From NCBI GenBank assembly GCA_013813435.1, contig JACCRS010000216.1, positions 1-47,203 of the forward strand: DNA of 47,203 bases, written 5' to 3'. This document shows positions 16,555 through 37,185 of this stretch, in pieces (positions within the stretch are counted from its first letter, which is position 1; every line of letters starts with the position of its first letter). The stretch is from Gemmatimonadales bacterium. Lineage in GTDB: Bacteria > Gemmatimonadota > Gemmatimonadetes > Gemmatimonadales > GWC2-71-9. The notes under the pieces are model-generated. The model was not told the DNA's origin, ran no database searches, and worked only from the letters and a program-made list of their open reading frames with translations. The translations under genes were made by a program, and so were the position numbers.

Positions 16555-17571
16555 TCAGCTTTCTCGACGCACGTCTCGGGCTGGCTTGTCGTCTCGCAGG
16601 CCGAGGAAACGAGGGTGGCGCAGCAGTCCGGCGGATGTCCACTCGGAGAACCCGATCTCGGCTACCAGCTCGGGGCTGACCCACTGAATTTCGCCGGCCG
16701 GCTTGGGTCCCTCCAGGAAAGGCGAGGTGGTGCGGTGAAGCGGAGCCAGCAGGGTGTGCAGAAGCTCGAGGGTCCTGCGATCATATCCGGTGCCCACCTT
16801 ACCCGCGTAGCGCAAAGCCTGCCCTGAGCCCTGCCAAGGGGCGTAGTGACCCACCAGCAGCGCACCGAGTCGCTCGCGCGATCCCTGTGGCGCAGTGTAG
16901 CCGCCGATGACCAGCTCCTGGCGGCGCAGGCACTTGATCTTGAGCCAGTCAGCCGAGCGCGCGCTCACGTAACGCGAATCCGCTCGCTTGGCCATGATTC
17001 CCTCCTCCTCCCGAGCGCACGCCTTTCGAAGCATGGCCGCGGCTCCGGTGGTCTTGTAGCGGCTAAGCCGCAGGACATCATCAAAGGTGACGACGTCCTG
17101 CAGGACGGCTTTCCGCTCGAGCAGCGGCAGACCGGTAAGATCGAGGCCGTCGAAGTACATGCAGTCGAACAGGTAGAGGTACACCGCAACCTGGCTGCGC
17201 CGGGCGCGGACGGGGTCTCGCAACTGCATGCGCTGCTGCAGCCGGGCGAAGCTGGTAATGCCGCGTTTCTCGTCAAAGGCTATGATCTCGCCATCGAGCA
17301 CCGCCTCGCCGTTTACCGACCCGCTCAAGGCTTCCACCAGCTCGGGATAGGCATCGTTTAGCGGCTTCCGATTACGAGAATAGATTCGTACGGAACCGGG
17401 GCTGACATAGATCAACGCCCGCACTCCGTCCAGCTTCGGCTCGTATACCCACTTTCCCGAAATGGGCAATTCCTCGGAGAGCGTCGCCAGCATGGGCGGA
17501 AGCCAGGCGGGAATGGCACGGCGGCGGAGACCTGCTGCTGCAGCTGGGGCAGTGGTCGAGGGGCGAATCAT
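16555..17571 (-). CDS. ligD: NHEJ ATP-dependent DNA ligase (LigD ligase + OB domains, stand-alone)
   Basis: Motif I YEPKLDG, LDGEI, FD, EGIMAK, WLKIK, GKVGTG, LRHPRFLGLRDDK; ATG 17571 overlaps the upstream stop (ATGA). Confidence 0.93.
   Translation of the reverse strand: MIRPSTTAPAAAAGLRRRAIPAWLPPMLATLSEELPISGKWVYEPKLDGVRALIYVSPGSVRIYSRNRKPLNDAYPELVEALSGSVNGEAVLDGEIIAFDEKRGITSFARLQQRMQLRDPVRARRSQVAVYLYLFDCMYFDGLDLTGLPLLERKAVLQDVVTFDDVLRLSRYKTTGAAAMLRKACAREEEGIMAKRADSRYVSARSADWLKIKCLRRQELVIGGYTAPQGSRERLGALLVGHYAPWQGSGQALRYAGKVGTGYDRRTLELLHTLLAPLHRTTSPFLEGPKPAGEIQWVSPELVAEIGFSEWTSAGLLRHPRFLGLRDDKPARDVRRES
16817..16841 (-). repeat. REP-like element inserted in frame in the ligase gene (PWQGSGQA)
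   Basis: Minus strand reads ccccttggcagggctcagggcaggc; a related intergenic copy lies at 40962-40987. Confidence 0.55.
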
Positions 17572-18632
17572 GCAGTCCTCTCTTCCAACAGCTGGGCGAG
17601 GTCCTGCTTGGCTGAAAGAATCTCCGCCCACGGGTCGCCCCGCTCCTCCAGAAGATCCGGCGCCGTACGTAGGGTAAAGTCCGTGGGATAGATCTCCTCC
17701 AATTGCTCCCAGGCCACCGGCATCGAAACGGTCCCGAGCGCGTTCCGGCGGGGCGAAAAGATGGCTGCCAGAGATTTGCCGCGGCTGTTCTGGTTGTAAT
17801 CGAAAAAGATCTTCCCGGTTCGGCGCTCGACCGACCACTCGAGCGTTACCTCCCCAGGCCACTGCTGAAGGGCGTACCGCCCGATGGTCTCGGCGATGCC
17901 GCGAGCAGCATCGTAGTCGAACTTGCGGAGGATCGGCAGATACAGATGCAGCCCGGTCCGACCCGATGTCTTGACGAACGTCTGAAGGCCCAGACCGGTA
18001 AGGAGCTCGCGCAGACGGAGCGCCAGGTCTCGCGTGCGATTGAATGCTCTGCGATGCAGCTCCGGCTCCTCGCCCTTACCCTCGCGCCCGGAATATTCAT
18101 ACGGGTCCAGATCAACCACTACGAAGTCAGGGAAATTGAGCACTGACTTATCCAGGGTGGCTTCAGAGCCCGAGAACTTGCGGCCTTTCCCCTTTGCGTC
18201 TGGTTGAGGATCTATGCGGGAAAACCACGGGTGCAGCTCCAACCCCGCCATCTGCGACAGCCAGAGCAGCGTCGCGAGATTCCCACAGATCAGGTAATCG
18301 CCGTCGCCCTCCTTGTGACTGGAGTAGATCGAGATATTGCGGGCAAAGTCAGGTGGCTCATCCCAATGCTTCTGATAGAAGCTCTTGCCGTTGATTCCAT
18401 CGGGATAGCGGGTGACAAACAGGGGGCGTCCGGCAAGATGGGGCAGCAGCCAGGGAGAGACCCGAGTCATGTATCGCAGCAAATCCCGTTTGGTCAGCGG
18501 ACTGCTGCCCTCAGCGGCAGGCCACAAGACTTTATCGAGATTGGTAACAGGTAGAGCGTGTCCCTCCACATTGAGTACCAAGCGTGGCTTGCGCTCGTCG
18601 AGCTGAGCCAGCACATCGCCAACCTCACTCAT
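17568..18632 (-). CDS. ligD: LigD polymerase (archaeo-eukaryotic primase-polymerase) domain, stand-alone
   Basis: TNLDKVLWP, TKRDLLRY, RYPDG, FYQK, DLDP, KTSGRTGLH, IFFDYNQN, VSMPVAW. Confidence 0.92.
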   Translation of the reverse strand: MSEVGDVLAQLDERKPRLVLNVEGHALPVTNLDKVLWPAAEGSSPLTKRDLLRYMTRVSPWLLPHLAGRPLFVTRYPDGINGKSFYQKHWDEPPDFARNISIYSSHKEGDGDYLICGNLATLLWLSQMAGLELHPWFSRIDPQPDAKGKGRKFSGSEATLDKSVLNFPDFVVVDLDPYEYSGREGKGEEPELHRRAFNRTRDLALRLRELLTGLGLQTFVKTSGRTGLHLYLPILRKFDYDAARGIAETIGRYALQQWPGEVTLEWSVERRTGKIFFDYNQNSRGKSLAAIFSPRRNALGTVSMPVAWEQLEEIYPTDFTLRTAPDLLEERGDPWAEILSAKQDLAQLLEERTA

Positions 18633-19465
18633 CCCACCTTCCGCGTCCGGCGGCGCGCGGGACGGGTCCCAGCGCGGGCCGGCGGTTTGGGCTTGCTGCC
18701 CTTCTTCGCCGCTTCGACGCTTCGCTTCAGCGCTTCGGCCAGATCGATCACCCCGGTGTCTCGGGCGGCTGGTGCACTCACGACCTGCTTGCCTTCGAGC
18801 TTGGCCTCGATGAGCTGCGCTAGCGCCTCTCGATAGGTGTCGCGGTATTCAGAAGGATCGAAGGGCTTCTTCAACAGCTCGATCAGAGTAAAAGCCATGC
18901 CGAGCTCCTTCTCCGACACCTTCACCCGGTCCAGATCGCTGCTCCGTTCCTGCCTGATCTCGTCGGGGTAATACAGTGTCTCCAGCATTATGGTGCCCTT
19001 ATGCGGCCGCAGCACGCAGAGCTGCTCTTTTTTTCTGATGGTAATGCTGGCCGTAGCGCTCAGCTTCTTTTCCTCCAGAGCCTTCAACAGCAGCGCGTAA
19101 GGTTTTTCTGCCCGCTCAGCCGGCTCGAGATAGTAGCTCTTCTCGTAGAAGACCGGATCGATCTCCTGCTCTTCCACAAAGGCGCTCAGCTCGATGGTGT
19201 GCTTGCTCGGAAGCGGCAGCTGCTCGAAGTCCTCTTCAGTCAGCACCACGTACTGACCTTTGGCGAACTCGTATCCCCGTGAAGTCTCGTTCCAGGGCAC
19301 TTCTACCTCATCGGTGGGGCACCAGCGCTTCTGCTGCAGCTTGGACCCGCAGGTTGCGTGAATCAAATTGAACCTGATGTCACGGCTCTCCGTTGCCCCG
19401 AAGAGTTTGACGGGTATGGTCACCATCCCGAAGCTGATCGAACCACTCCAGATTGCCCTCGGCAT
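18629..19465 (-). CDS. ku: Ku protein (NHEJ)
   Basis: MPRAIWSGSISFGMVTIPVKL, RGYE, YYLEP, YPDEIR, VIDLAEALKRS, basic tail; SD GGAGGT before ATG 19465. Confidence 0.96.
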   Translation of the reverse strand: MPRAIWSGSISFGMVTIPVKLFGATESRDIRFNLIHATCGSKLQQKRWCPTDEVEVPWNETSRGYEFAKGQYVVLTEEDFEQLPLPSKHTIELSAFVEEQEIDPVFYEKSYYLEPAERAEKPYALLLKALEEKKLSATASITIRKKEQLCVLRPHKGTIMLETLYYPDEIRQERSSDLDRVKVSEKELGMAFTLIELLKKPFDPSEYRDTYREALAQLIEAKLEGKQVVSAPAARDTGVIDLAEALKRSVEAAKKGSKPKPPARAGTRPARRRTRKVG

Positions 19466-19511
19466 GTGCAGCACCTCCGAATAGGCCCGGAGCCGAACTA
19501 TCCCCCGAGAC

Positions 19512-19613
19512 TTTTCCACAACGGATCGCGTATTGTCCACAGAGTTGTCAACACAACCTGTTGACAAATAATAGCTTACGAAGTTTGATAATCAGGCTGA
19601 TACCAACGGGTTG
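19512..19613. promoter_or_regulatory. Cluster of four DnaA-box-like 9-mers plus two IHF-like sites in an AT-rich patch
   Basis: ttttccaca 19512-20, ttgtccaca 19533-41, ttgtcaaca 19545-53, tgttgacaa 19559-67; IHF-like aaataatagctta 19566-78 and taccaacgggttg 19601-13. Confidence 0.65.
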
Positions 19614-20947: not shown

Positions 20948-21739
20948 TTGCGAGGAAAGCTGCCCGGAACAAGACAGGATACGGATCTGGAAGAGCGTGA
21001 CTCGGCGGCAGCCGCGCTATGGGCAGAGCACGTCTCCAAGCGCTATGGTCCTGTCCTGGCACTGGACACGGTCTCGATCGGCGTGTGGCCGGCAGAGTGC
21101 GTGGCGCTGATAGGGGAAAGCGGTTCGGGAAAGACCACGCTGCTCCGTTGTTTCAACCGGCTGATCGTTCCCGATGCCGGGCGGGTTCGGGTGGACGGAA
21201 CCGACGCAGCGGAGCTGGATGCCATAGCCTTGCGCCGGCGCATGGGATACGTCCCCCAGGATGGCGGGTTGCTTCCTCATTGGACCGTGCAACGCAACGT
21301 GGAATTGGTACCGTGGCTCCTCCGAATGACCAACGCTTCCGAGCTGGCCGAGCGCGCATTGACGTTGGTAGGGCTGGAGCCGGCCCGGTTCCGTGGGCGG
21401 GCACCGGGAGAGTTGTCGGGGGGAGAGCGCCAGCGGGTGGCCGTAGCGCGCGCGCTTGCCGCACAGCCGCAGGTCATTCTCCTGGATGAGCCTTTCGGGG
21501 CGCTTGACGCGATCACCCGTGCGGATCTTCAGATCGCATTTGCAGCGATTCGGCGGGAGTTGAGAATCACGGCATTGTTAGTGACGCACGATCTCAACGA
21601 GGCGTTTCTTCTGGCCGACCGAATCGTGGTGATGCGGCAGGGCAGGGTAGAGCAGGACGCGAGTCCGGGACAGCTTCGCGACGCTCCTGCCACCGACTAC
21701 GTGCGCCGGCTTTTGTCCCGTGCGCCGGTCGTGCCGTGA
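20948..21739 (+). CDS. ABC transporter ATP-binding subunit, osmoprotectant (OpuA/ProV-like) family
   Basis: GESGSGKT, LSGGERQR, LLDEPFGALD, VTHD; start uncertain. Confidence 0.93.
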   Translation: MRGKLPGTRQDTDLEERDSAAAALWAEHVSKRYGPVLALDTVSIGVWPAECVALIGESGSGKTTLLRCFNRLIVPDAGRVRVDGTDAAELDAIALRRRMGYVPQDGGLLPHWTVQRNVELVPWLLRMTNASELAERALTLVGLEPARFRGRAPGELSGGERQRVAVARALAAQPQVILLDEPFGALDAITRADLQIAFAAIRRELRITALLVTHDLNEAFLLADRIVVMRQGRVEQDASPGQLRDAPATDYVRRLLSRAPVVP

Positions 21740-23298
21740 GTACTCCGATACGGGTGTCCATACTAATGGTCATCCTGACGTTCCTCTCGCCGATCGTTCC
21801 GGCTGAGGGCCAGAAGGTGCGCCCAATCATCGTGGCCTCGAAGCCGTTTGGCGAGTCGTTCCTCCTGGCTGAGATGTTTGCGCAGCTGCTGGAAGCTCGC
21901 GGCTTCGAGGTGGATCGCCGCCTCGGCCTCGGAGCCACCGAGATTGCATTCAATGCCCTGCGGACCAATGCCATCGATGTTTACCCGGAATACACCGGTA
22001 CCGGCCTGCTTGCCATACTCGGCCAGCAACCCAGCGCGGATCCCCGAGAGGTCTACCGCGAGGTCTCACGAGAGTTCGGTCGCCGCTATGGTGCCCGCTG
22101 GCTACCGCCGCTCGGCTTTCAGAACACCTACGCCATCGCGGTTCGGCGGACCACAGCACGGGACCTGAGGCTGGTGACCCTCAGCGATCTTGCGCGCAAC
22201 AGCCGGACCCTGAGGGCCGGGCTGACTCCCGACTTCATCGGACGGGCCGACGGCCTTCCGGGGCTGCAAAAAGCCTATGGCCTCCGCTTCCAGTCAACTC
22301 GCGCCCTTTTGCCGGCGGTCAAGTACCACGCGCTCGCTGCCGGCGAGGTGGATGTGATCGATGGCTACTCCACCGATGGATTCATTGCGCGCTATGATCT
22401 GGTGATCCTGGAGGACGACCGGGCGTTTTTTCCGCCCTACGAGGCTGCAGCACTGGTCAGCCCGGGCCTGCAGCGGGAGGTGCCTGCCGCCACCGCCACC
22501 CTGACGGAGTTGAGCGGCCTGTTGAGCGAGAGTGCCATGAGGAGACTCAACCGGCGGATCGAGGTTGATGGCGTCCCGGTAGCCCGCGTTGCCGCCGGTC
22601 AGCTACTGGCTCTGGGCCTCACCAGCCGCGCCACTGCCGAATCCCGCATGTCCGCAACCGATGCATCCGACCGTGGGGTTCTGTCGTACCTCTGGGGACA
22701 ACGGGTGACCATCTTCGGCCTCGCGCTTCGGCACCTGCTTCTCGTGAGTGTCTCCCTGATAGCGGCCATTGCAGTAGCCTTACCGCTGGGCCTGGCTCTG
22801 GAGCGGGGCCGGGGTGCGGCGGAGTCCGTCATCCGGGGAGTGGGAGTACTGCAAACCCTCCCCAGCATAGCTCTGCTGGCCTTCATGATCCCGTTGCTGG
22901 GTATCGGGGTGATACCCGCAGTCGTGGCGCTGTTTCTCTATTCGCTCTATCCGATCTTGCGCAACACTTACACCGGAGTAAGGGACGCGGCTCCCGCGGC
23001 CGTCAATGCTGCCTGGGCTCTGGGGATGACTCCGCGGCAGGTACTACGTTACGTTCGACTGCCGCTGGCGGCGCCGGTGATCATGGCGGGCATCCGCACC
23101 GCCGCTGTACTCAATGTCGGTACAGCCACCTTGGCGGCATTCATCGGCGCGGGTGGACTCGGAGACCCCATCGCTGCGGGGCTTGCCTTGTCGGACACCC
23201 GGATGATTCTCTCCGGCGCGTTGCCGGCTGCACTCCTGGCCCTGCTGGTAGACGGCGTACTCGGCGTATGCGAGCGTGCGGCTACCCCGCGCCGTTAG
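21736..23298 (+). CDS. Fused glycine-betaine/choline-type substrate-binding protein and ABC permease
   Basis: SKPFGE, YPEYTGT, FQNTYAIAV, YSTDG, FFPPY; then QTLPSIAL, EAA-like loop AAWALGMT, IGAGGLG. Confidence 0.92.
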   Translation: MSTPIRVSILMVILTFLSPIVPAEGQKVRPIIVASKPFGESFLLAEMFAQLLEARGFEVDRRLGLGATEIAFNALRTNAIDVYPEYTGTGLLAILGQQPSADPREVYREVSREFGRRYGARWLPPLGFQNTYAIAVRRTTARDLRLVTLSDLARNSRTLRAGLTPDFIGRADGLPGLQKAYGLRFQSTRALLPAVKYHALAAGEVDVIDGYSTDGFIARYDLVILEDDRAFFPPYEAAALVSPGLQREVPAATATLTELSGLLSESAMRRLNRRIEVDGVPVARVAAGQLLALGLTSRATAESRMSATDASDRGVLSYLWGQRVTIFGLALRHLLLVSVSLIAAIAVALPLGLALERGRGAAESVIRGVGVLQTLPSIALLAFMIPLLGIGVIPAVVALFLYSLYPILRNTYTGVRDAAPAAVNAAWALGMTPRQVLRYVRLPLAAPVIMAGIRTAAVLNVGTATLAAFIGAGGLGDPIAAGLALSDTRMILSGALPAALLALLVDGVLGVCERAATPRR

Positions 23299-28574: not shown

Positions 28575-29699
28575 CTATCGCGCCGCGTTGATCGTCCGGA
28601 TCAGCTCATCGTTGGTAGGCTGTCTCTTGAGGTCGGTTAGCAGATCGTTCATGGCGTTGATCGGGGTCATACCGGCAATCCTCTGTCTGAGGACATGAGA
28701 TGCCGCCAGTGCCTCCTCTGACAGCAGCAGCTCCTCACGACGGGTAGCGCTGGCTAACAGATCGATGGCCGGAAAGATCCGCCGCTCGGCCAGCTCCCGG
28801 CTCAGCACCAGCTCGCTGTTTCCGGTCCCCTTGAACTCCTCGAAGATCACCTGATCCATCTTGCTGCCGGTGTCCACCAGAGCGGTGGCAATGATGGTGA
28901 GGGACCCGCCGCTCTGGGATGGGTCTATCCTCCGGGCACTGCCCAGAAAGCGCTTGGGTTTCTCCAGCGACTGCGCATCCAGCCCACCCGACAGTGTACG
29001 GCCGGTACCCTTCTCGACGGTGTTATAGGCCCGGGCCAGCCGGGTTAGGGAATCGACGATCAGCACCACGTCATCTCCCATTTCGACCCGGCGGCGGGCG
29101 CGTTCCAGCGTCAACTCGGCCAGGGCGACGTGTTGTTGCGCCGGGTTGTCGAAGCTGGAGGCAATGACTTCTCCAACTCCCGCGGCCTCCATCTCGAAAA
29201 CCTCTTCGGGACGCTCATCCACCAGCAGGATGAACAAATCGGCGCCCGGATAGTTGGCGCTCACACCCTGGGCGATGGACTGCAATACCATGGTCTTACC
29301 CGCTTTGGCCGGGGCGACGATGAGCGCCCGCTGGCCCTTGCCCATGGGGCAAAGCAGGTCGATGACGCGGTTGGTATGGTCCGATTGCCCGGCTGGCCTG
29401 CCGGTGGCCTCGAGCCGCAGCTGCTCGTTTGGATGTACCGCGCCCAGCCGGCTGAATTCGGGCCGCTGACGCAGGACTTCGGGTGATTTCCCCAGGACGG
29501 TTGTAATCGTCTCCAGCGAGGCGCTCTTACCTCTGCCCCCCTGCCGAATCGAACCGGCAATCTCATCGCCGGTCCGGAGGCCGAACTGCCGGATGAGCCT
29601 CTCCCCTACATGGACATCGCCGTGTGAGGGCAGGTAGCTCGCGTCCCGCCGGCGGAGAAAACCACTTCCCCGGCCCGCGACTTCGAGAACGCCGAGCAT
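28575..29699 (-). CDS. rho: Transcription termination factor Rho homolog, N-terminally shortened
   Basis: GFLR OB-fold, GKGQR, APAKAGKT, DERPEEV, DSLTRLARAYN, LSGG, FEEFKGTGNSE, TRREELL; ATG 29699 overlaps the sufE stop (TGATG). Confidence 0.92.
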   Translation of the reverse strand: MLGVLEVAGRGSGFLRRRDASYLPSHGDVHVGERLIRQFGLRTGDEIAGSIRQGGRGKSASLETITTVLGKSPEVLRQRPEFSRLGAVHPNEQLRLEATGRPAGQSDHTNRVIDLLCPMGKGQRALIVAPAKAGKTMVLQSIAQGVSANYPGADLFILLVDERPEEVFEMEAAGVGEVIASSFDNPAQQHVALAELTLERARRRVEMGDDVVLIVDSLTRLARAYNTVEKGTGRTLSGGLDAQSLEKPKRFLGSARRIDPSQSGGSLTIIATALVDTGSKMDQVIFEEFKGTGNSELVLSRELAERRIFPAIDLLASATRREELLLSEEALAASHVLRQRIAGMTPINAMNDLLTDLKRQPTNDELIRTINAAR

Positions 29700-30118
29700 C
29701 AATTGGCCGCCGTTGCCACAGAGCGTTTTATGCGTTGCAGAATGGCCGTGAGCCCCTGGGTTCGAGTCATCCCGAGCGTTTCACTGAGACCGAGCTGGTC
29801 CAGCAGGTCGTTTGGAATACGAGCCACGGCGGCGGGCGTTTCACCTTCCAGGCTCCGGGCGAGTAGTGATATGAATCCTCGAACTGTGGGCGACTCCCTC
29901 GGTACATCAGCGTGAATGTGGACCTGGCCATCGTCTACCTCGACCCAGAGAAAAACCGGAGTCTGGCACTCGTGGACCCGACTATGTCCTAACTGCTTCT
30001 CAGCTTCGTAGCGCTCAGGCAGCGGTGGGAGCTTCTTGGAATAGTCCAGGAGTGTCTCGAGCCGGGTGGTGCGGTCGGCCGCCTTAAATCGGGGGATCAA
30101 TGCTTCCAGTGATGGCAT
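29699..30118 (-). CDS. sufE: SufE-family sulfur acceptor protein
   Basis: LLDYSKKLPPLP, VHECQTPVFL (persulfide Cys), SPTVRGF, LGL..TLGMTR..G. Confidence 0.9.
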   Translation of the reverse strand: MPSLEALIPRFKAADRTTRLETLLDYSKKLPPLPERYEAEKQLGHSRVHECQTPVFLWVEVDDGQVHIHADVPRESPTVRGFISLLARSLEGETPAAVARIPNDLLDQLGLSETLGMTRTQGLTAILQRIKRSVATAAN

Positions 30119-30291: not shown

Positions 30292-31623
30292 ATGACAACT
30301 ATCGCTGCCACCCGCCGGGTCGACCCCGAAGTCATAGCCGAGCATCTCGCCGAGGCGCGGGCTCGCACTCTCCTCCTAATTGCGCCTCTTACGGACCAGG
30401 AGCTCCGTGCCCAGCACGATCCCTTGATGAGCCCTATCCTATGGGATCTGGGTCACATCGCCCACTTTGAGGAGCTTTGGCTCACTCAAAATCTCGAGGG
30501 CCCGGTCGAGTTCGTGGAGATGCCGGGTCTCTACAATCCCTTCGAGCACCCTCGAAATGAACGGGGGGCACTCCGGCTGCCCAATATAGCCGAGTGCCGG
30601 GAGATCATGGATCAGATCCGGGACAAGGTGCTGGCGCGGCTGGCTGACAATGACTGGGATGCCTCTAATGCCCTTTTGCGGGAGGGTTACGTATATCGCA
30701 TGGTGCTCCAGCACGAATACCAGCACAATGAGACCATGCTGCAAACCCTTCAACTGAAACAGGGTCGGCCATACTCGCCTGCGGCACGGTTCGACTTCCT
30801 CGATGGGCGGTTGGGGGCGGGCAGCTCTGTACCCAAGCACGACATGGTGCGGTTTCCCGGTGGGCCCGTGGATATAGGGACGGATGATCGTTCGGAGGCC
30901 TATGACAATGAACGGAGCCGTCACACACTCGTGCTGCCACCTTTCTGGATCGACCGTAATCCGGTAACGAACGGCGATTTCGCGGGCTTCGTGGCGGCCC
31001 TGGGCTATTCTACCCGGGAATTTTGGTCGGATGCGGGATGGGAATGGGTTACCAGGGCCGGTGCGCGGGCGCCGCTTTACTGGAGTTGGGAAGACGGTGG
31101 CTGGCAAACCCGCTCGATGGACCAGGCCGGTCCGCTCCAGCCCTCCAACCCGGTATGTCACGTCTCCTACTATGAGGCGGAAGCGTTCGCGCGCTTTGCC
31201 GGTAAACGCCTCCCTACCGAGTTCGAGTGGGAAGCTGCCGCTTCGTGGGACGTGTCGTCGCGCACAAAGCTCCGCTATCCGTGGGGTGAGCAGACACCAT
31301 CGAAGGATCTGGCGAATGTAGATCAACTGTCGTTTGGAACCAGGCCGGTGGGAAGTTACCCGCTAAATGTCTCTCCCCTCGGGTGCTACGGCATGATCGG
31401 CGATGTGTGGGAGTGGACGTCCAGTGATTTCCGGCCTTACCCCAACTTTCAAAGCTTTCCCTACGCGGAATACTCTGAGGCCTTCTTCGGAACGGAGTAC
31501 AAGGTGCTCCGGGGCGGGTCTTGGGCCACCCGGCCAGGGGCCATCCGCAACACTTTCCGCAACTGGGACTACCCTATCCGCCGCCAGATCTTCAGCGGCT
31601 TCCGGTGTGCCCGAGATGAGTGA
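30292..31623 (+). CDS. egtB: Ergothioneine sulfoxide synthase EgtB (DinB + FGE-like; gamma-glutamylcysteine-using type)
   Basis: MSPILWDLGHIAHFEELW, HPRNER, QHEYQHNETML (Fe ligands), RLPTEFEWE, PYAEYSEAFF, RNWDYPIRRQIFSGFR. Confidence 0.92.
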   Translation: MTTIAATRRVDPEVIAEHLAEARARTLLLIAPLTDQELRAQHDPLMSPILWDLGHIAHFEELWLTQNLEGPVEFVEMPGLYNPFEHPRNERGALRLPNIAECREIMDQIRDKVLARLADNDWDASNALLREGYVYRMVLQHEYQHNETMLQTLQLKQGRPYSPAARFDFLDGRLGAGSSVPKHDMVRFPGGPVDIGTDDRSEAYDNERSRHTLVLPPFWIDRNPVTNGDFAGFVAALGYSTREFWSDAGWEWVTRAGARAPLYWSWEDGGWQTRSMDQAGPLQPSNPVCHVSYYEAEAFARFAGKRLPTEFEWEAAASWDVSSRTKLRYPWGEQTPSKDLANVDQLSFGTRPVGSYPLNVSPLGCYGMIGDVWEWTSSDFRPYPNFQSFPYAEYSEAFFGTEYKVLRGGSWATRPGAIRNTFRNWDYPIRRQIFSGFRCARDE

Positions 31624-32626
31624 GTCTTCCATTAACCGGTGGTCCCGGGCAGGAAGCCCCGACCGGAATGAGGTGGCGTCGCGGGCCTACAAGCACCCCA
31701 ATCCGCGCATGCTCTTTGAGGTGGCCGCCGGGTTGTCTGCGCCGCGCAAGGAGCTGCCGCCGAAATACTTTTACGATCATCGCGGCTCCGAGCTTTTCGA
31801 GGAGATCACCCGGCTGCCGGAGTACTATCAGACCCGGACCGAACGGGCGATCCTCGAAGCCTGGATGCCGGAGCTCATTCCTGAGCTGGGGACCCGGGCT
31901 CTTGTCGAGCTCGGCGCCGGGAGCGCCGAGAAGAGCCGGATCATCATTACTGCCATGCGCGCTGCGGGAACGGCCGATCTCTACGTTCCCATCGATGTCA
32001 GCGCCAGCTTCCTCGACCAGACTGCGGCTCAGTTACGGCGGGATTATCCCGGGCTGACCATCGAGCCGGCCGTAGCTGACATAGCCGAGGGATTCGAGCG
32101 GCCCCGGGGACTCCCCCACCCGGCCATGTACGCGTTCCTCGGTGGGACCATCGGCAACTTCTACCCCCCGGCGGCGATCCGGCTCCTGAGCCGCGTGCGG
32201 GCCGCCATGACTTCGGAAGACCGGCTCCTCCTGGGCGTGGATCTTAGAAAAGATGCCGGCCGGATCGAACGGGCCTACAACGATTCTCAGGGAGTGACCG
32301 CGGCGTTCAACCGAAACATGCTTCTGGTAGTGAACCACGAACTGGGGGCGAACTTCGATGCGGCCGCCTTCGAGCATCGGGCCTTCTATGAGCCGATCAA
32401 CCATAGAATCGAAATGCATCTCGTATCCACCTTCGAGCATGAGGTCAGAATTCCCGGGATCGGCCTGGTCCCCTTTGCCGCGGGAGAATCGATACTGACC
32501 GAGATCAGTTGTAAGCATGACCGTGACAGTGTCGCCGAGCTGTTCGAGTCGGCCGGGCTCCATATCCAGATCTGGAGACCCGATCCGCAGGGGCTATTCG
32601 CCCTGGTTGTGGGGGCGGTCGCGTGA
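31616..32626 (+). CDS. egtD: L-histidine N-alpha-methyltransferase EgtD
   Basis: KELPPKYFYD..GSELFEEIT.LPEYY.TRTE, ELGAGSAEK, FLGGTIGN, AYND.QGVTAAFN, RIEMHL, TEISCK. Confidence 0.95.
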   Translation: MSESSINRWSRAGSPDRNEVASRAYKHPNPRMLFEVAAGLSAPRKELPPKYFYDHRGSELFEEITRLPEYYQTRTERAILEAWMPELIPELGTRALVELGAGSAEKSRIIITAMRAAGTADLYVPIDVSASFLDQTAAQLRRDYPGLTIEPAVADIAEGFERPRGLPHPAMYAFLGGTIGNFYPPAAIRLLSRVRAAMTSEDRLLLGVDLRKDAGRIERAYNDSQGVTAAFNRNMLLVVNHELGANFDAAAFEHRAFYEPINHRIEMHLVSTFEHEVRIPGIGLVPFAAGESILTEISCKHDRDSVAELFESAGLHIQIWRPDPQGLFALVVGAVA

Positions 32627-33879
32627 CCACTCTGACGCCGGCAGTGCTGGAAACCGATCTGGCTGCGCGGGTTTTTGCCGGACCGATCTCCGGGTCACTG
32701 ACTCCTCGCCGCCTGGGCGCGGAGGTCGAGTTCATTCCGGTGGAATCACTCACCGGCCGGAGGTGCGGCATCGAGTCGGAGGGAGTTCCCGGCATCCTGC
32801 CGTTTCTCCGGCGCTATGGTGGCATGCAGGGCTGGGGAGAGAGCCGTACCTCCAAAGGAACTCCCTGCTTTACCCTCCCCGCCGGCGGTACGGTGACGTT
32901 CGAGCCAGGCGGCCAGGTTGAGTACAGCTCGCCGCCTTGTCGCTCGGCCAGTGCGCTCCTGCGGCTCTTGCGATCGGTGGTTTTCCCCCTGCGCGCCGCT
33001 GCCTCCGGAGAAGGCATCGACCTCTTGGCAGTAGGAATAGACCCCTTCAACTCGGCGGAAGCGGCACCGCTGCTGATTCACGCGAAGCGTTATCAGCGAA
33101 TGGCGGAGTACCTTTCGCGCTTGGGGCCTGCGGGAGCCCAAATGATGCGGCAGACCGCGGCGTTTCAGGTGAGCGTCGACTTCGATGATGAGCCATGGCT
33201 CCGCTGGCGGGTGCTCAATGCGGCCGCTCCTTTCGTGGTGGCGATCTTCGCAAACTCTCCGATCTATGCCGGCGAGCGAACCGGACATCAGAGCGCCAGG
33301 GCCGATGTCTGGCGCAAGCTCGATCCGCTGCGCACCGGTATCCCCTACGAGGAGCGGGCGCCGATTCAGGCGTATCTCCAGTTTGCCTTGGGAGCGCCGG
33401 CCATTCTGTTTCCCACCCTCGATGGTGAGCACCGGCCGTTTGGCGAGTGGTTGACGCGCGCCAATCCGAGCGCGGAGGAATGGCAGGACCATCTCAGCAC
33501 ACTCTTCCCTGAAGTGCGCCCCCGCGGGCACCTCGAGCTCAGATCGGCCGATGCCGTGGCCCCCGAGTGGTATGCCGCGCCGCTGGCCCTGGCCGCGGGG
33601 ATCTTGTACGACTCGAGGGCTCTTCGTGCCGCGGCCGACTTGCTGCCGCTGCCCGATCGGGGACTTCTCGAGCGCGCCGGACGGCTGGGACTTCACGATC
33701 CCGCCATCGCACGAACGGCCGCTGATCTCTTTGAGCTCGCGCTTTCCGGATGCGCCGGGCTCGGTCCCCGCTATTTCCACCCATCCGACCTGGAACAGGC
33801 CCGGGCCTATTTCGATCATTACACCAGGCGTTCGCGCGCTCCCGCCGACGATATACTGCAGGACGCCCTTGCAGCATAG
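32623..33879 (+). CDS. egtA: Glutamate-cysteine ligase EgtA (GCS2 family)
   Basis: [55 protein letters not shown]; coupled to egtD. Confidence 0.9.
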
Positions 33880-33887
33880 GTAGCCTC

Positions 33888-34856
33888 GTGCAAGCCATCC
33901 GAGTTCACCAGACCGGAGGTCCCGAGGTTCTGCGTTACGAAAAGGTCGAGCAACCGGTACCCGGGCCGGGCGACGCTTTGGTTCAGGTTCAAGCCGCCGG
34001 CCTCAACTTTATCGAGGTTTACCAGCGAACCGGCCTCTACAAGGTTGCACTCCCGTTTACGCCGGGGTCTGAGGCGGCGGGAACGGTCGTCCAAATCGGC
34101 TCGGCCGTCTCCGAGGTGAAGGTGGGCGATCGAGTTACCTCACCGAGCTTCACCGGCTCCTACGCGGAGTTCTCCCTCGCCCCGGCAGAGAGGCTCCTGG
34201 TGCTGCCGGCTGGAGTGGCCACTCGGCTGGCCGCTGCGGCGCTGCTCCAGGGCTTGACCGCCCACTACCTGGCGTGTTCGACCTTCCCGCTCGACTCCAC
34301 ACACACCTGTCTGGTGCATGCCGCGGCCGGGGGAGTGGGTCTGTTGCTGTGCCAGATTGCGCATCTGCGGGGAGCTCGGGTCATTGGGACGGTATCTACC
34401 GAAGAGAAAGCTGCTCTGGCGCGCCAGGCCGGGGCTGACGAGGTCATTCTCTATACCCGGCAGGATTTCGCGGCCGAGACGAGACGCTTGACTGGGAATG
34501 CCGGCGTGCATGTGGTGTACGACTCGGTGGGCCGGACCACATTTGCCAAGAGCATCGACTGCCTCGCTCCCCGGGGCATGCTGGTGCTGTACGGCCAGTC
34601 CAGCGGGCCGGTGGGGCCGGTTGATCCCCAGATCCTCAGCGCGAAAGGGTCCCTGTTTCTCACCCGCCCTGCGCTGGGCCACTATGTGGCCAGCCGGGCC
34701 GACCTCCTGGCGCGGGCGTCCGCCGTGCTCGGATGGATGTCGGATGGGTCACTAAAGGTGCGCGTGGCGCGCGAGTTTCATCTATCCGCCGCCGCAGACG
34801 CACACACCGAGCTCGAAGCGCGCCGCACGGCGGGTAAGGTGCTGCTCATCCCTTGA
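33888..34856 (+). CDS. qor: NADPH:quinone oxidoreductase (zeta-crystallin-like MDR)
   Basis: [61 protein letters not shown]. Confidence 0.92.
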
Positions 34857-35719
34857 CCAGGCCGCTCCCACCGGTGGTCTCCACTGCATGGCTGGCCGCA
34901 AAGCTGGGCCATCCAGGACTGCGCGTGATCGACGCATCCTGGTACCTGCCCGGCAGCGGACGTGATCCGGCCGCCGAATATGCCGCAGGTCACATTCCGG
35001 GCGCAGTCTTTTTCGATGTAGACGCCAGCAGCGATGCCAGATCACCACTGCCGCACATGCTCCCGGCAGCAGCCGAGTTCGCGGATCGAATGGCCGCTCT
35101 CGGGCTCAACGACACGGATCAGTTGGTGGTGTATGATGGGTCGGGCGTGAACCTCAGTGCGCCCAGGGTATGGTGGACAATGCGCACGTTCGGACACGAC
35201 CAGGTTGCGGTGCTGGACGGCGGAATGGGCATGTGGCGCCGCGAGCGCCGTTCGCTGGAGGAGGGGGGTATCACACTCCCGGCAGGCCACTTCACCGCAC
35301 GCCTGGACAGCTCCGCTGTCCGGGATCTCGCCGCGGTACGCGCAAACATTCGGACCCAGGCGGAGCAGCTGGTCGATGTGCGATCCCGCCAGCGATTCGC
35401 CGGAATAGAACCGGAGCCCCGCCCCGGCCTCAGAAGCGGTCACGTTCCGGGCAGTATCAATCTGCCGTTCACTGAGCTGGTGCATCCGGATGGCTCGATG
35501 CTGCCACTGGGTGAGCTGCGACAACGCCTGGCAGGTTCAGGGATCGACTTCGCACGACCGGTGATCGCGACGTGTGGCTCGGGCACCAGTGCCTGCGCCT
35601 TGACTCTCGGTCTGCACCGGCTGGGGCACACCCAAACTGCCGTGTACGATGGCGCCTGGGCGGAATGGGGTGGACGCGCGGACACGCCAGTCGATTCCCA
35701 ACCAATTTCCCAGCGCTGA
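34853..35719 (+). CDS. sseA: 3-mercaptopyruvate sulfurtransferase (tandem rhodanese)
   Basis: [34 protein letters not shown], active loop [16 protein letters not shown]. Confidence 0.93.
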
Positions 35720-35727
35720 ACCTTCTC

Positions 35728-37185
35728 GTGGCATCCGGCCGAGCTTCACGCAAGAACGTCGATCTGGGTGTTGGCTGCGTCGTCCTTTTCCTGATTCCCT
35801 TTGCGGCCATCGGGGCGTTCATGGCCGTGATAGCCGTCCAGCGGGCTGCCGCCAGGAACTGGTCCGACGCGCTCTTCCTCGCTCTCGTCGCGATCACGTT
35901 CGGTGGCGTAGGACTTGGCGGGATAGCCGCCGTTCTCGCAGGCCGGCGCAGGCTGAAGGAACAGGCGGCGCTCGAAGCCAGCCAACCGGATTCACCCTGG
36001 CTGTGGCGGCCCGACTGGGCCTCAGGACGGATCCTCGATGCCAGCCGGGTAACCATGTTCGCGGCTTGGATTTTCGCTGCGCTGTGGAATCTGATCAGCT
36101 TTCCGGCCGGCTTTCTTGGAGTGCGTGCGGCGATTGAGGAAAACAAGCCCGCCGCTCTTCTCGCCCTGCTCTTCCCCCTGGTGGGCCTGGGATTGCTGGT
36201 CTGGGCCGTGCGCTCGACCTTGCGATACCGCAGGTACGGCGCGTCACGGCTCGAGCTTTCCAGCGTTCCCTGCGTCATTGGCCGCACCATGGTTGGGATG
36301 GTGCGCGCCCCCGCCCGCATGCAGCCCGACGATGGATTTCAAGTCACGCTCAGCTGTGTACGGCTGGTGACGACGGGAGGGGGAGAGGACCGGCCGACCT
36401 CGGAGCGCATCCTATGGCAGGAGGAGCAGCGGGTCGTGGGGGAGCCGAGCCGCACCGCCACGGCAATGGAAACACACATCTCCGTGGCCTTTCGGCTCCC
36501 GGCTGATGCTGAACCGTGCGACGATAGCGATCCGGACAGCCGGGTTGTCTGGCGGCTTCACCTCACGGGAAGTATGCCCGGTGTCGACTACCAGTCGCAT
36601 TTCGAGGTCCCGGTGTTCCGGACCCCGGCAAGCGATCAGCCGCTGTCAGCGGACGAGAAGAGGATCACTCAGGCAGCACACACTGACGCAGACTATCAGC
36701 AGCCGCTCGACTCGCGCATCGTGGTCACTTCAAACACCCGCGGCACGGAGATCCTGTTTCCCGCTGCCCGGAATCCGGGTGCCGCAACCAGCCTGACACT
36801 ATTCCTTCTCTTGTGGCTCGGGTGCATCGCGCTCCAGATGTATTTCCATGCACCTCTCCTGTTTCCAATCGTCACCGGGCTCTTTGGTGTGCTGATTCTG
36901 ACTGGAGTGCTCGACTTGTGGCTTGAAGTATCGCGGGTGAGCGTGGACGCGGGGACTCTCACGTGGGCGATGGGATTGATCTTTCCGGCGGGTGAGCACA
37001 CGGTCGGCGCCTCCGAGATTGCGGGCGTCACCGCTTCGATCGGCATGCAGGCGGGAACTACACCGTACTACGATGTTGAAATCGTTCGGCAGAACGGCAA
37101 GAAGATCAAGGTGGGTCGCTCGGTGCGAAACAAGCAGGAGGCCGAGTGGCTGGCGAGGAAGATCAGGGAAGCTATCAGCGCTTAG
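35728..37185 (+). CDS. Hypothetical multi-pass membrane protein
   Basis: Three pairs of TM segments around a soluble beta-rich domain; start (GTG 35728) uncertain. Confidence 0.75.
   Translation: MASGRASRKNVDLGVGCVVLFLIPFAAIGAFMAVIAVQRAAARNWSDALFLALVAITFGGVGLGGIAAVLAGRRRLKEQAALEASQPDSPWLWRPDWASGRILDASRVTMFAAWIFAALWNLISFPAGFLGVRAAIEENKPAALLALLFPLVGLGLLVWAVRSTLRYRRYGASRLELSSVPCVIGRTMVGMVRAPARMQPDDGFQVTLSCVRLVTTGGGEDRPTSERILWQEEQRVVGEPSRTATAMETHISVAFRLPADAEPCDDSDPDSRVVWRLHLTGSMPGVDYQSHFEVPVFRTPASDQPLSADEKRITQAAHTDADYQQPLDSRIVVTSNTRGTEILFPAARNPGAATSLTLFLLLWLGCIALQMYFHAPLLFPIVTGLFGVLILTGVLDLWLEVSRVSVDAGTLTWAMGLIFPAGEHTVGASEIAGVTASIGMQAGTTPYYDVEIVRQNGKKIKVGRSVRNKQEAEWLARKIREAISA

What the first reader, a model, noticed from the sequence alone, without database searches (positions are those of the whole stretch)
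30292..37185. Ergothioneine operon lacking EgtC and EgtE but continued by Qor, a sulfurtransferase and a membrane protein
Seen: egtB, egtD and egtA overlap; qor starts 8 bp later, overlaps sseA (TTGA), and a membrane protein follows about 8 bp on. EgtB has mycobacterial type I hallmarks (HPRxxR, YxxYSxxFF, RNWDxPxRRQIF), consistent with gamma-glutamylcysteine supplied by EgtA. Established: that route needs EgtC (removes Glu), EgtE (PLP C-S lyase) and a reductant. Inference: either those genes are elsewhere, or Qor and SseA (with SufE) provide an undescribed finishing or recycling route, or the product is a different thiohistidine derivative. This is the best candidate for a new pathway in the window.
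Basis: partly seen in the sequence, partly recalled or inferred. Interest (0 to 1): 0.72.

Follow-up and report, generated by a model that had tools for sequence, protein, structure and literature searches.

The report
Ergothioneine pathway that lost EgtC
A three-gene cassette shared by many Gemmatimonadota bacteria likely makes the antioxidant ergothioneine without the usual glutamate-trimming enzyme EgtC, likely borrowing unlinked enzymes for the last two steps, while the reductase and sulfurtransferase genes behind it here sit there in this genus only and are likely bystanders.

Summary
The gene layout is as described. EgtB keeps the type I residues that bind gamma-glutamylcysteine, almost without variation in 56 sequences. 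EgtC was not found in this genome (93.75% complete), nor in 45 of 50 cassette-bearing genomes of the phylum sample. The proposed Qor/SseA finishing route fails: qor follows egtA in 21 of 23 same-genus loci but in 0 of 33 loci from 19 other genera, and sseA in 0 of 30 outside two sister genera. An EgtE-like lyase that keeps 7 of 7 tested catalytic residues lies on another contig. The best candidate to replace EgtC is an unlinked PuuD-like peptidase C26. It is present in 45 of 45 EgtC-less cassette genomes and absent from the 4 with egtC beside egtA, but its background frequency is high (116 of 156). Verdict: a new variant of the known mycobacterial-type route; no enzyme activity was tested. No earlier scan report of it was found.

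The parts
30292..31623 (+). egtB, type I non-heme iron sulfoxide synthase (core of the cassette)
   Evidence: TIGR03440 above cut-off; best PDB match 4x8b, E 1.2e-100; H55/H141/H145, D52, R88, R91, Y391, N424, D426, R430 each invariant in 56 of 56 sequences, S47 in 55 of 56
31616..32626 (+). egtD, histidine N-alpha-methyltransferase (core)
   Evidence: TIGR03438 337 bits vs cut-off 291; 8-bp overlap with egtB
32623..33879 (+). egtA-like glutamate-cysteine ligase, GCS2 family (core)
   Evidence: Pfam GCS2; best NCBIfam family EgtA but below cut-off; PDB matches are plant glutamate-cysteine ligases, E about 1e-30; follows egtB-egtD in 56 of 60 fetched loci
33888..34856 (+). qor, NADPH:quinone reductase-like; genus-level neighbour, likely not part of the pathway
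   Evidence: NF008024 298 vs 348; downstream of egtA in 21 of 23 same-genus loci, within 150 bp in 5, and in 0 of 33 loci of other genera
34853..35719 (+). sseA, ordinary two-domain 3-mercaptopyruvate sulfurtransferase; neighbour in this genus and its sister genus
   Evidence: NF008557 above cut-off; E. coli SseA 1urh E 1.5e-74; active-site loop CGSGTSA at residue 241; downstream of egtA in 23 of 23 same-genus, 3 of 3 sister-genus (4-6 kb away, behind opposite-strand genes) and 0 of 30 other loci
35728..37185 (+). membrane protein of unknown function; neighbour only
   Evidence: no Pfam or NCBIfam family; five hydrophobic segments; ESM Atlas clusters 'hypothetical', DUF3592 on 14% of members of the first; downstream of egtA in 15 of 23 same-genus loci and 0 of 30 outside the two sister genera
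29699..30118 (-). sufE-like sulfur acceptor, divergent and followed by a short Rho paralog; neighbour only
   Evidence: Pfam SufE; in none of the 33 egtBDA loci outside the genus
20948..21739 (+). ABC ATPase of a betaine-type transporter, about 8.5 kb upstream; more widely linked to the cassette than qor/sseA
   Evidence: 66% identical to the ATPase that lies within 2 kb of egtBDA in 13 of 30 loci from 8 other genera; best family proV; start codon uncertain
21736..23298 (+). fused substrate-binding protein and permease of the same transporter; ProX-like, not EgtU-like at the one key position checked
   Evidence: 70% identical to the cassette-linked protein of other genera; PDB matches include EgtUC (E 2e-50) and AfProX; shares the SKPF motif with AfProX, so Phe where EgtU has the invariant Gly244 (bioRxiv 10.1101/2022.05.02.490363, passages)

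Best explanation
egtB-egtD-egtA is a three-gene cassette conserved across Gemmatimonadota that likely makes ergothioneine by the mycobacterial-type route, with its last two steps likely done by unlinked enzymes, while qor, sseA and the membrane gene follow it only in this genus and its sister genus and are likely bystanders. Steps: (1) EgtD trimethylates histidine to hercynine (family membership shown, activity inferred). (2) EgtA makes gamma-glutamylcysteine (family shown, activity inferred). (3) EgtB joins the two into the gamma-glutamyl sulfoxide (binding residues shown, activity inferred). (4) The glutamate is removed by a non-EgtC hydrolase. My first candidate is the PuuD-like peptidase C26 at G000:C140:35896-36681 (inferred from distribution only; about 0.35-0.4 for this particular enzyme); the two gamma-glutamyltransferases are second choices. 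(5) A PLP lyase cuts the C-S bond; here likely the EgtE-like protein at G000:C129:7039-8262 (residues shown, activity inferred). (6) A small thiol, plausibly gamma-glutamylcysteine itself since no glutathione synthetase was found, reduces the sulfenic acid (chemistry from the literature, inferred here).
For: Core: egtB-egtD-egtA in this order in 56 of 60 fetched loci from 20 genera; the glutamyl-binding Asp416/Arg420 equivalents are invariant in 56 of 56. EgtC gap: no match in G000, in 0 of 18 same-genus genomes, and in 45 of 50 cassette genomes. The same search scores four actinobacterial egtABCD controls above cut-off, so it works. Bystanders; the co-occurrence table of PMC13674229 lists no Qor, rhodanese or SufE family but does list the ABC transporter and PRK06370 seen here. 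EgtE stand-in: best NCBIfam family is EgtE; it keeps Tyr48, Tyr106, Asp180, Gln183, Arg202, Lys203 and Arg348 of M. smegmatis EgtE and lacks the desulfurase cysteine. Borrowed C-S lyases are documented (PMC13674229; PMC5790434). EgtC stand-in: C26 hydrolase in 45 of 45 EgtC-less cassette genomes and in 0 of 4 with egtC next to egtA; 11 of 12 in a second set; its Cys and His motifs are intact. Precedent: plant GGP1 cleaves a glutathione conjugate upstream of a C-S lyase (PMC3042935, passages; that GGP1 is a class I amidotransferase is recalled).
Against: No activity or metabolite was measured. The C26 hydrolase is common without the cassette (116 of 156 in the two main families; 124 of 251 overall). 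It is not linked to egt genes, its closest solved relatives are PuuD-type proteins, and 3 of the 4 EgtC-adjacent genomes belong to one genus of a family where it is absent anyway (0 of 49). In the second set 3 of 5 EgtC-bearing genomes also have it, and one EgtC-less genome lacks it. The EgtE-like protein scores 173 bits vs cut-off 400, matches cysteine desulfurases in PDB about as well as EgtE, lacks an aligned Arg337, and occurs in only 21 of 50 egtA-bearing vs 7 of 30 egtA-negative genomes, so other lyases must serve in most relatives. EgtA is below the EgtA cut-off. sseA stays downstream in 23 of 23 same-genus loci, and the tight spacing here fits one transcript.
Confidence: 0.62

Rival explanations
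1. No enzyme removes the glutamate. The cassette's product is the gamma-glutamyl sulfoxide itself, or a thiohistidine released from it by another chemistry such as elimination of the sulfoxide or processing by an exported gamma-glutamyltransferase.
For: EgtC is missing in 45 of 50 cassette genomes. No gene other than a transporter and a disulfide reductase recurs beside the cassette across genera. The EgtE-like lyase is missing in 29 of 50 egtA-bearing genomes. Both gamma-glutamyltransferases of G000 start with signal-like hydrophobic stretches (read by eye). No ChaC or GGACT cyclotransferase was found in G000.
Against: EgtC-bearing and EgtC-less cassettes have the same EgtB active site and fall in one clade, which points to one product. 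A C26 hydrolase is present wherever EgtC is missing in the main set.
Confidence: 0.14
2. EgtB uses free cysteine well enough, so EgtC is unnecessary. EgtA mainly supplies gamma-glutamylcysteine as the cell's redox thiol and as the reductant of the last step.
For: No glutathione synthetase above cut-off in G000. A PRK06370 disulfide reductase abuts egtB in 15 of 56 loci; a MerA-annotated enzyme reduces gamma-glutamylcystine in haloarchaea (PMC7278568, passages). Cysteine-using EgtBs work without EgtC (PMC11993508, passages).
Against: Those cysteine-using EgtBs are type II. Here the glutamyl-binding Asp426 and Arg430 are invariant in 56 of 56, and the closest structure is type I (E 1e-100 vs 6e-53 for the Chloracidobacterium enzyme). 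Seven related cassettes do keep egtC beside egtA.
Confidence: 0.11
3. One reading: in this genus Qor and SseA (with SufE) finish or recycle the product, for example by reducing the sulfoxide or sulfenic acid and moving the sulfur.
For: Tight same-strand spacing here; sseA downstream in 23 of 23 and qor in 21 of 23 same-genus loci; where qor is missing, sseA follows egtA at 27-45 bp.
Against: 0 of 30 loci outside the two sister genera. A close sseA orthologue is found in only 4 of 31 egtA-bearing genomes outside them vs 8 of 30 egtA-negative genomes (E<=1e-50). Unrelated neighbours (serC, short Rho, M48 peptidase, arginase) are conserved in the genus too. Opposite-strand genes interrupt egtA-qor in some relatives. 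Neither family hydrolyses gamma-glutamyl amides (established knowledge). SseA is an ordinary 3-MST.
Confidence: 0.07
4. A canonical egtC exists in this organism but is missing from the assembly.
For: The genome is 93.75% complete, in 255 contigs.
Against: 0 of 18 further same-genus genomes (92-99% complete, some in 3-10 contigs) have a match; 5 of 201 in the order sample.
Confidence: 0.03

Closest known systems
Mycobacterial/actinobacterial egtABCDE ergothioneine pathway (type I EgtB, PDB 4x8b)
   Same: Type I EgtB with all checked substrate and iron residues, EgtD, and a GCS2 ligase in one cluster.
   Different: Gene order is B-D-A, not A-B-C-D; no egtC in the genome; the EgtE-like lyase is unlinked and below the family cut-off; phylum Gemmatimonadota.
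Streptomyces coelicolor egtABCD with an unlinked egtE, and thiohistidine clusters that borrow a C-S lyase (PMC5790434, PMC13674229)
   Same: The C-S lyase is not in the cluster.
   Different: Those keep EgtC or use cysteine; here a gamma-glutamylcysteine-type enzyme lacks EgtC.
Type II EgtB pathways (Chloracidobacterium, Methylobacterium egtBD)
   Same: Ergothioneine made without EgtC.
   Different: They use cysteine and need no EgtA; this EgtB is type I and sits with a ligase.
Selenoneine synthase SenA
   Same: Same fold family; NF041186 scores 366 bits.
   Different: Below the cut-off of 420; has Asp426, Ser47, Asp52 where SenA has Phe397, Asn63, Glu68.
EanB anaerobic ergothioneine synthase (rhodanese type)
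   Same: A rhodanese-family gene lies near a histidine methyltransferase.
   Different: SseA has 288 aa and matches 3-MST at E 1e-74, against 1e-7 to 1e-8 for the 441-460 aa sulfurtransferases 6h98/6ktv (that these entries are EanB is recalled).
Plant gamma-glutamyl peptidase GGP1 and bacterial PuuD/SpuA hydrolases
   Same: Removal of a gamma-glutamyl group ahead of a C-S lyase (GGP1); the candidate is a peptidase C26 related to PuuD.
   Different: I found no paper linking this family to ergothioneine (0 papers); the candidate's substrate is untested.

Membership tests
Type I EgtB | Three-His iron triad and catalytic Tyr377 | tested here: met
   H55, H141, H145, Y391 align to 4x8b and are invariant in 56 of 56
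Type I EgtB | Gamma-glutamylcysteine-binding residues Ser43, Asp48, Arg90, Asp416, Arg420 | tested here: met
   S47 (55 of 56); D52, R91, D426, R430 (56 of 56); residues from PMC11237966 section 3.5
Type I EgtB | Measured preference for gamma-glutamylcysteine | not testable with these tools
   needs enzyme assay
Canonical egtABCDE pathway | EgtD methyltransferase | tested here: met
   TIGR03438 above cut-off
Canonical egtABCDE pathway | EgtA ligase | tested here: inconclusive
   GCS2 family met, best family EgtA, but 208.5 vs 370.8 bits
Canonical egtABCDE pathway | EgtC amidohydrolase | tested here: not met
   not found in G000; controls detected
Canonical egtABCDE pathway | EgtE C-S lyase | tested here: inconclusive
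   unlinked protein, 173 vs 400 bits, 7 of 7 mutationally tested residues kept, Arg337 not aligned
Canonical egtABCDE pathway | Ergothioneine produced | not testable with these tools
   needs LC-MS
SenA selenoneine synthase | Phe397, Asn63, Glu68 in the substrate pocket; NF041186 cut-off | tested here: not met
   Asp426, Ser47, Asp52; 366 vs 420 bits
SenA selenoneine synthase | senB and senC in the genome | not tested
   none among the 13 neighbouring proteins scanned; no genome-wide search
EanB sulfurtransferase | Long (about 450 aa) multi-rhodanese ergothioneine synthase | tested here: not met
   288 aa, passes the 3-MST equivalog NF008557
EgtUV ergothioneine importer | Invariant Gly244 in the binding domain | tested here: not met
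   Phe, as in AfProX; read via the AfProX alignment, not a direct EgtU alignment
   0 of 30 loci from 18 genera; qor within 150 bp in 5 of 23 same-genus loci

The most novel reading that the evidence does not exclude
Across Gemmatimonadota the gamma-glutamylcysteine route to ergothioneine runs without EgtC because an unrelated class I hydrolase (PuuD-like peptidase C26) has replaced it. That would be a non-orthologous swap that gives this family a new substrate and parallels the plant GGP1/C-S lyase logic.
Probability: 0.35. Interest if true: 0.58.

Novelty: new variant of a known kind. Interest (0 to 1): 0.4.

Why it matters
Reviews I read place the five-gene gamma-glutamylcysteine route in Actinobacteria and note that unknown enzymes must fill missing steps elsewhere (PMC5790434, passages). 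This cassette extends the type I route to Gemmatimonadota (egtA match in 54 of 301 sampled genomes) and defines one clean pathway hole, glutamate removal without EgtC, with a named candidate that one assay can test. If confirmed, genome screens that require egtC miss producers, and engineers gain an alternative enzyme. It does not point to new sulfur chemistry by Qor or SseA.

Tried and rejected
Qor/SseA/SufE as finishing enzymes: rejected on linkage and distribution. SseA as EanB: rejected. EgtB as SenA: rejected. The second EgtB-like gene on C219 as a partner: it lacks two of the three iron histidines and the catalytic tyrosine and was not found in 5 of 5 relatives. ChaC and GGACT cyclotransferases as EgtC substitutes: not found in G000. 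Glutathione as EgtB substrate (cyanobacterial case): no GshB above cut-off. The EgtE-like protein as a dedicated partner across the phylum: not co-distributed. All-against-all clustering of flanking ORFs found no recurring hydrolase beside EgtC-less cassettes (ORFs of 80 aa or more, only the top 45 clusters printed). The promoter/terminator scan was at chance level and uninformative. RNA evidence: no RNA holder listed; no reads were laid. The EgtA tree did not finish, and the EgtB tree is the quick version without root or clade test, so loss versus gain of egtC is open. The distribution of gamma-glutamyltransferases in relatives was not tested. No structure or complex prediction was run, as neither would settle substrate choice. 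The EgtB structure paper PMC7133768 was not held; the type classification paper (Stampfli 2019) was seen only through reviews. No supplements were read; those of PMC13674229 may list such clusters. Literature searches for this arrangement listed no paper describing it, but most subscription journals are outside the library.
Full report
Observation. EgtB, EgtD and SseA pass their curated NCBIfam cut-offs. The EgtA-like protein (208.5 vs 370.8) and Qor (298 vs 348) have the named family as best match but fall below it. The ligase passes Pfam GCS2 and matches plant glutamate-cysteine ligases in PDB. The last ORF has no family and five hydrophobic segments. Close relatives of the ligase come from records titled Gemmatimonadales or Gemmatimonadota, which places the window.

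EgtB type. The best solved relative is M. thermoresistibile EgtB (4x8b, E 1.2e-100), ahead of the Chloracidobacterium enzyme (6e-53) and SenA (3e-41). PMC11237966 (section 3.5 read) names Ser43, Asp48, Arg90, Asp416 and Arg420 as gamma-glutamylcysteine contacts, with Phe397 replacing Asp416 in SenA. By my count along the alignment these are S47, D52, R91, D426 and R430 here. All but S47 (55 of 56), plus the iron histidines and Y391, are invariant in 56 sequences: the window plus 55 loci; five loci without a single clean egtB hit were left out. The enzyme is therefore predicted to yield a gamma-glutamyl sulfoxide, which needs its glutamate removed before a PLP lyase can act (established pathway; PMC5790434, passages).

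EgtC is missing. In G000 (93.75% complete) TIGR03442 finds only a weak stretch in a GlmS-like frame and PF13230 nothing. The search detects four actinobacterial egtABCD controls above cut-off. In a sample of 301 phylum genomes the ligase matched 54. Four of these lack egtB-egtD beside it, leaving 50 including G000; 46 were checked on wide loci and four same-genus genomes were assumed. Five of the 50 have an EgtC-like match, all below cut-off. In four of them it sits tail-to-tail with egtA, as it does in 3 further loci. So 45 of 50 cassette genomes lack it. These genomes are kin and mostly draft assemblies.

Qor, SseA, SufE and the membrane gene. I fetched 12-18 kb around the ligase from 60 genomes; 56 hold egtB-egtD-egtA. 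In the window's genus (23 loci) sseA follows in 23, qor in 21 and the membrane gene in 15. Qor is within 150 bp of egtA in only 5 and more than 600 bp away in 15. Inserts include YflT-domain genes and, on the opposite strand, a glyoxalase-family gene or an unassigned ORF. In the sister genus (3 loci) qor lies upstream and sseA 4-6 kb downstream behind opposite-strand genes. In 30 loci from 18 other genera none of the three follows egtA, and sufE is in none of the 33 loci outside the genus. serC, a short Rho, an M48 peptidase and arginase are also conserved around the cassette in the genus, so this is ordinary local synteny. Genome-wide, a close sseA orthologue (E<=1e-50) is in 23 of 50 egtA-bearing and 8 of 30 egtA-negative genomes, and in 4 of 31 egtA-bearing genomes outside the two genera; more distant sulfurtransferases were not counted. 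SseA is an ordinary 3-MST. The co-occurrence table for these synthases in PMC13674229 (parts 1-2 of 5 read) has no Qor, rhodanese or SufE row. Co-transcription here is plausible and untested.

What does travel with the cassette. A betaine-type ABC transporter lies within 2 kb in 13 of 30 loci from 8 other genera; its orthologue is in this window at 20948-23298. Its binding domain is related to EgtUC and ProX but has the ProX-type Phe at the EgtU Gly244 position, so hercynine or a betaine is as likely a cargo as ergothioneine (inference). A PRK06370 disulfide reductase abuts egtB in 11 of 23 same-genus and 4 of 30 other loci, but has no close match in G000. Both partners appear in the PMC13674229 table (13.6% and 5.4% for the ABC parts, 4.0% for Lpd/PRK06370), as do EgtC at 15.2%, EgtA at 12.1% and EgtE at 6.2%.

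The lyase step. G000:C129 encodes a 407-aa PLP protein whose best NCBIfam family is EgtE (173 vs 400 bits). Aligned to M. smegmatis EgtE it keeps all seven residues tested by mutation in PMC10805701 (passages) and lacks the desulfurase cysteine; Arg337 is not aligned. In PDB it scores about equally with cysteine desulfurases. It is in 21 of 50 egtA-bearing and 7 of 30 egtA-negative genomes, so it is a plausible lyase here and not a fixed partner. Borrowed lyases are documented. The sulfenic acid product is reduced by DTT in vitro, and natural thiols are proposed in vivo (PMC4493562, passages). With no GshB above cut-off, gamma-glutamylcysteine is the obvious thiol (inference).

The glutamate-removing step. 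G000 has two gamma-glutamyltransferases with signal-like N-termini, no ChaC or GGACT, and one PuuD-like peptidase C26 with intact Cys and His motifs. The C26 protein has a relative (E<=1e-20) in 45 of 45 EgtC-less cassette genomes, in none of the 4 with egtC beside egtA, and in the one with a distant EgtC-like gene. Against this, it is also in 116 of 156 cassette-less genomes of the two main families, and absent from all 49 of the family holding three of the four EgtC-adjacent genomes. By genus, 14 of 14 cassette genera against roughly 38 of 57 others gives p about 0.007. The genus totals are my estimate from the tool's numbering, kin are not independent, and this was one of three candidate proteins profiled, so the figure overstates. 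In a second set of 17 loci of this type, 11 of 12 EgtC-less genomes have it (one duplicates a genome of the first set; completeness unknown), and so do 3 of 5 EgtC-bearing ones. This makes it a lead, not a result. Plant GGP1 is a precedent for such trimming before a C-S lyase (PMC3042935, passages). The phylum background tallies include G125, which is flagged unpublished; it carries one count in the C26 background and no other claim rests on it.

History. A quick, midpoint-drawn EgtB tree of 45 rows puts 37 cassette EgtBs, with and without egtC, in one clade (SH-aLRT 96), apart from three actinobacterial ones. It cannot tell loss from gain of egtC.

Literature. Searches listed no paper on an EgtC-less type I cassette, on ergothioneine genes in Gemmatimonadota, or on peptidase C26 in this pathway. 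Most subscription journals are not held and no supplements were read. PMC6154287 (passages) names only EgtB and EgtD as essential in M. tuberculosis, which hints that EgtC can be bypassed. PMC10903977, PMC10295655, PMC13547098, PMC11993508, PMC7278568 and PMC4621440 were read as passages only. The scan's own notes held nothing on this cassette.

Verdict. A real, widespread, EgtC-less variant of the known route (confidence 0.62 that it makes ergothioneine with borrowed enzymes), with one testable hole. Interest 0.4.

Noticed in passing
G000:C219:4296-5540 (L115): A degenerate EgtB paralog (44% identical to the window's EgtB) that lacks two of three iron histidines, the RxxR loop and the catalytic tyrosine. 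It lies back-to-back with beta-aspartyl peptidase, cyanophycinase-like and cyanophycin synthetase-like genes. Not found in 5 of 5 relatives tested.
   Followed up: partly
L041, L042, L043, L044, L045, L048, L049, L050, L053, L108, L112 (upstream of egtB); L082, L083, L089, L096 (divergent): A PRK06370 flavoprotein disulfide reductase abuts egtB in 15 of 56 loci. It could reduce oxidised gamma-glutamylcysteine or ergothioneine; a MerA-annotated enzyme does the former in haloarchaea. No close match in G000.
   Followed up: partly
window 20948-23298 (+): The betaine-type ABC transporter that flanks egtBDA in other genera is here separated from it by a serA/serC-like block; its binding domain has the ProX-type Phe at the EgtU Gly244 position.
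   Followed up: partly
L174:5824-11854 and L175: In two records titled Bacteroidota, the same ligase family is followed by glutathione synthetase (seen in L174) and faces an EgtB that lacks the Asp416 equivalent, with egtD and the ABC transporter beyond. No EgtC in either genome. Possibly a glutathione-using route.
   Followed up: partly
window 28575-30118 (-): sufE overlaps a short-form Rho paralog (NF041509 best among short forms, below cut-off); the pair is conserved in the genus.
   Followed up: no
family f7 of the phylum sample (e.g. G249, G253, G266): 19 of 49 genomes carry an EgtC-like gene but only 3 of 49 match this ligase, and none has the C26 hydrolase; what these EgtC-like genes serve was not examined.
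   Followed up: no
window 16555-19567 (-): Ku, a primase-polymerase-like gene and an ATP-dependent ligase-like gene in a row, read by eye as a non-homologous end-joining set.
   Followed up: no
L164: A record titled Acidimicrobiia carries egtB-egtD-egtA whose EgtB nests among Gemmatimonadales sequences: a binning error or a transfer.
   Followed up: no
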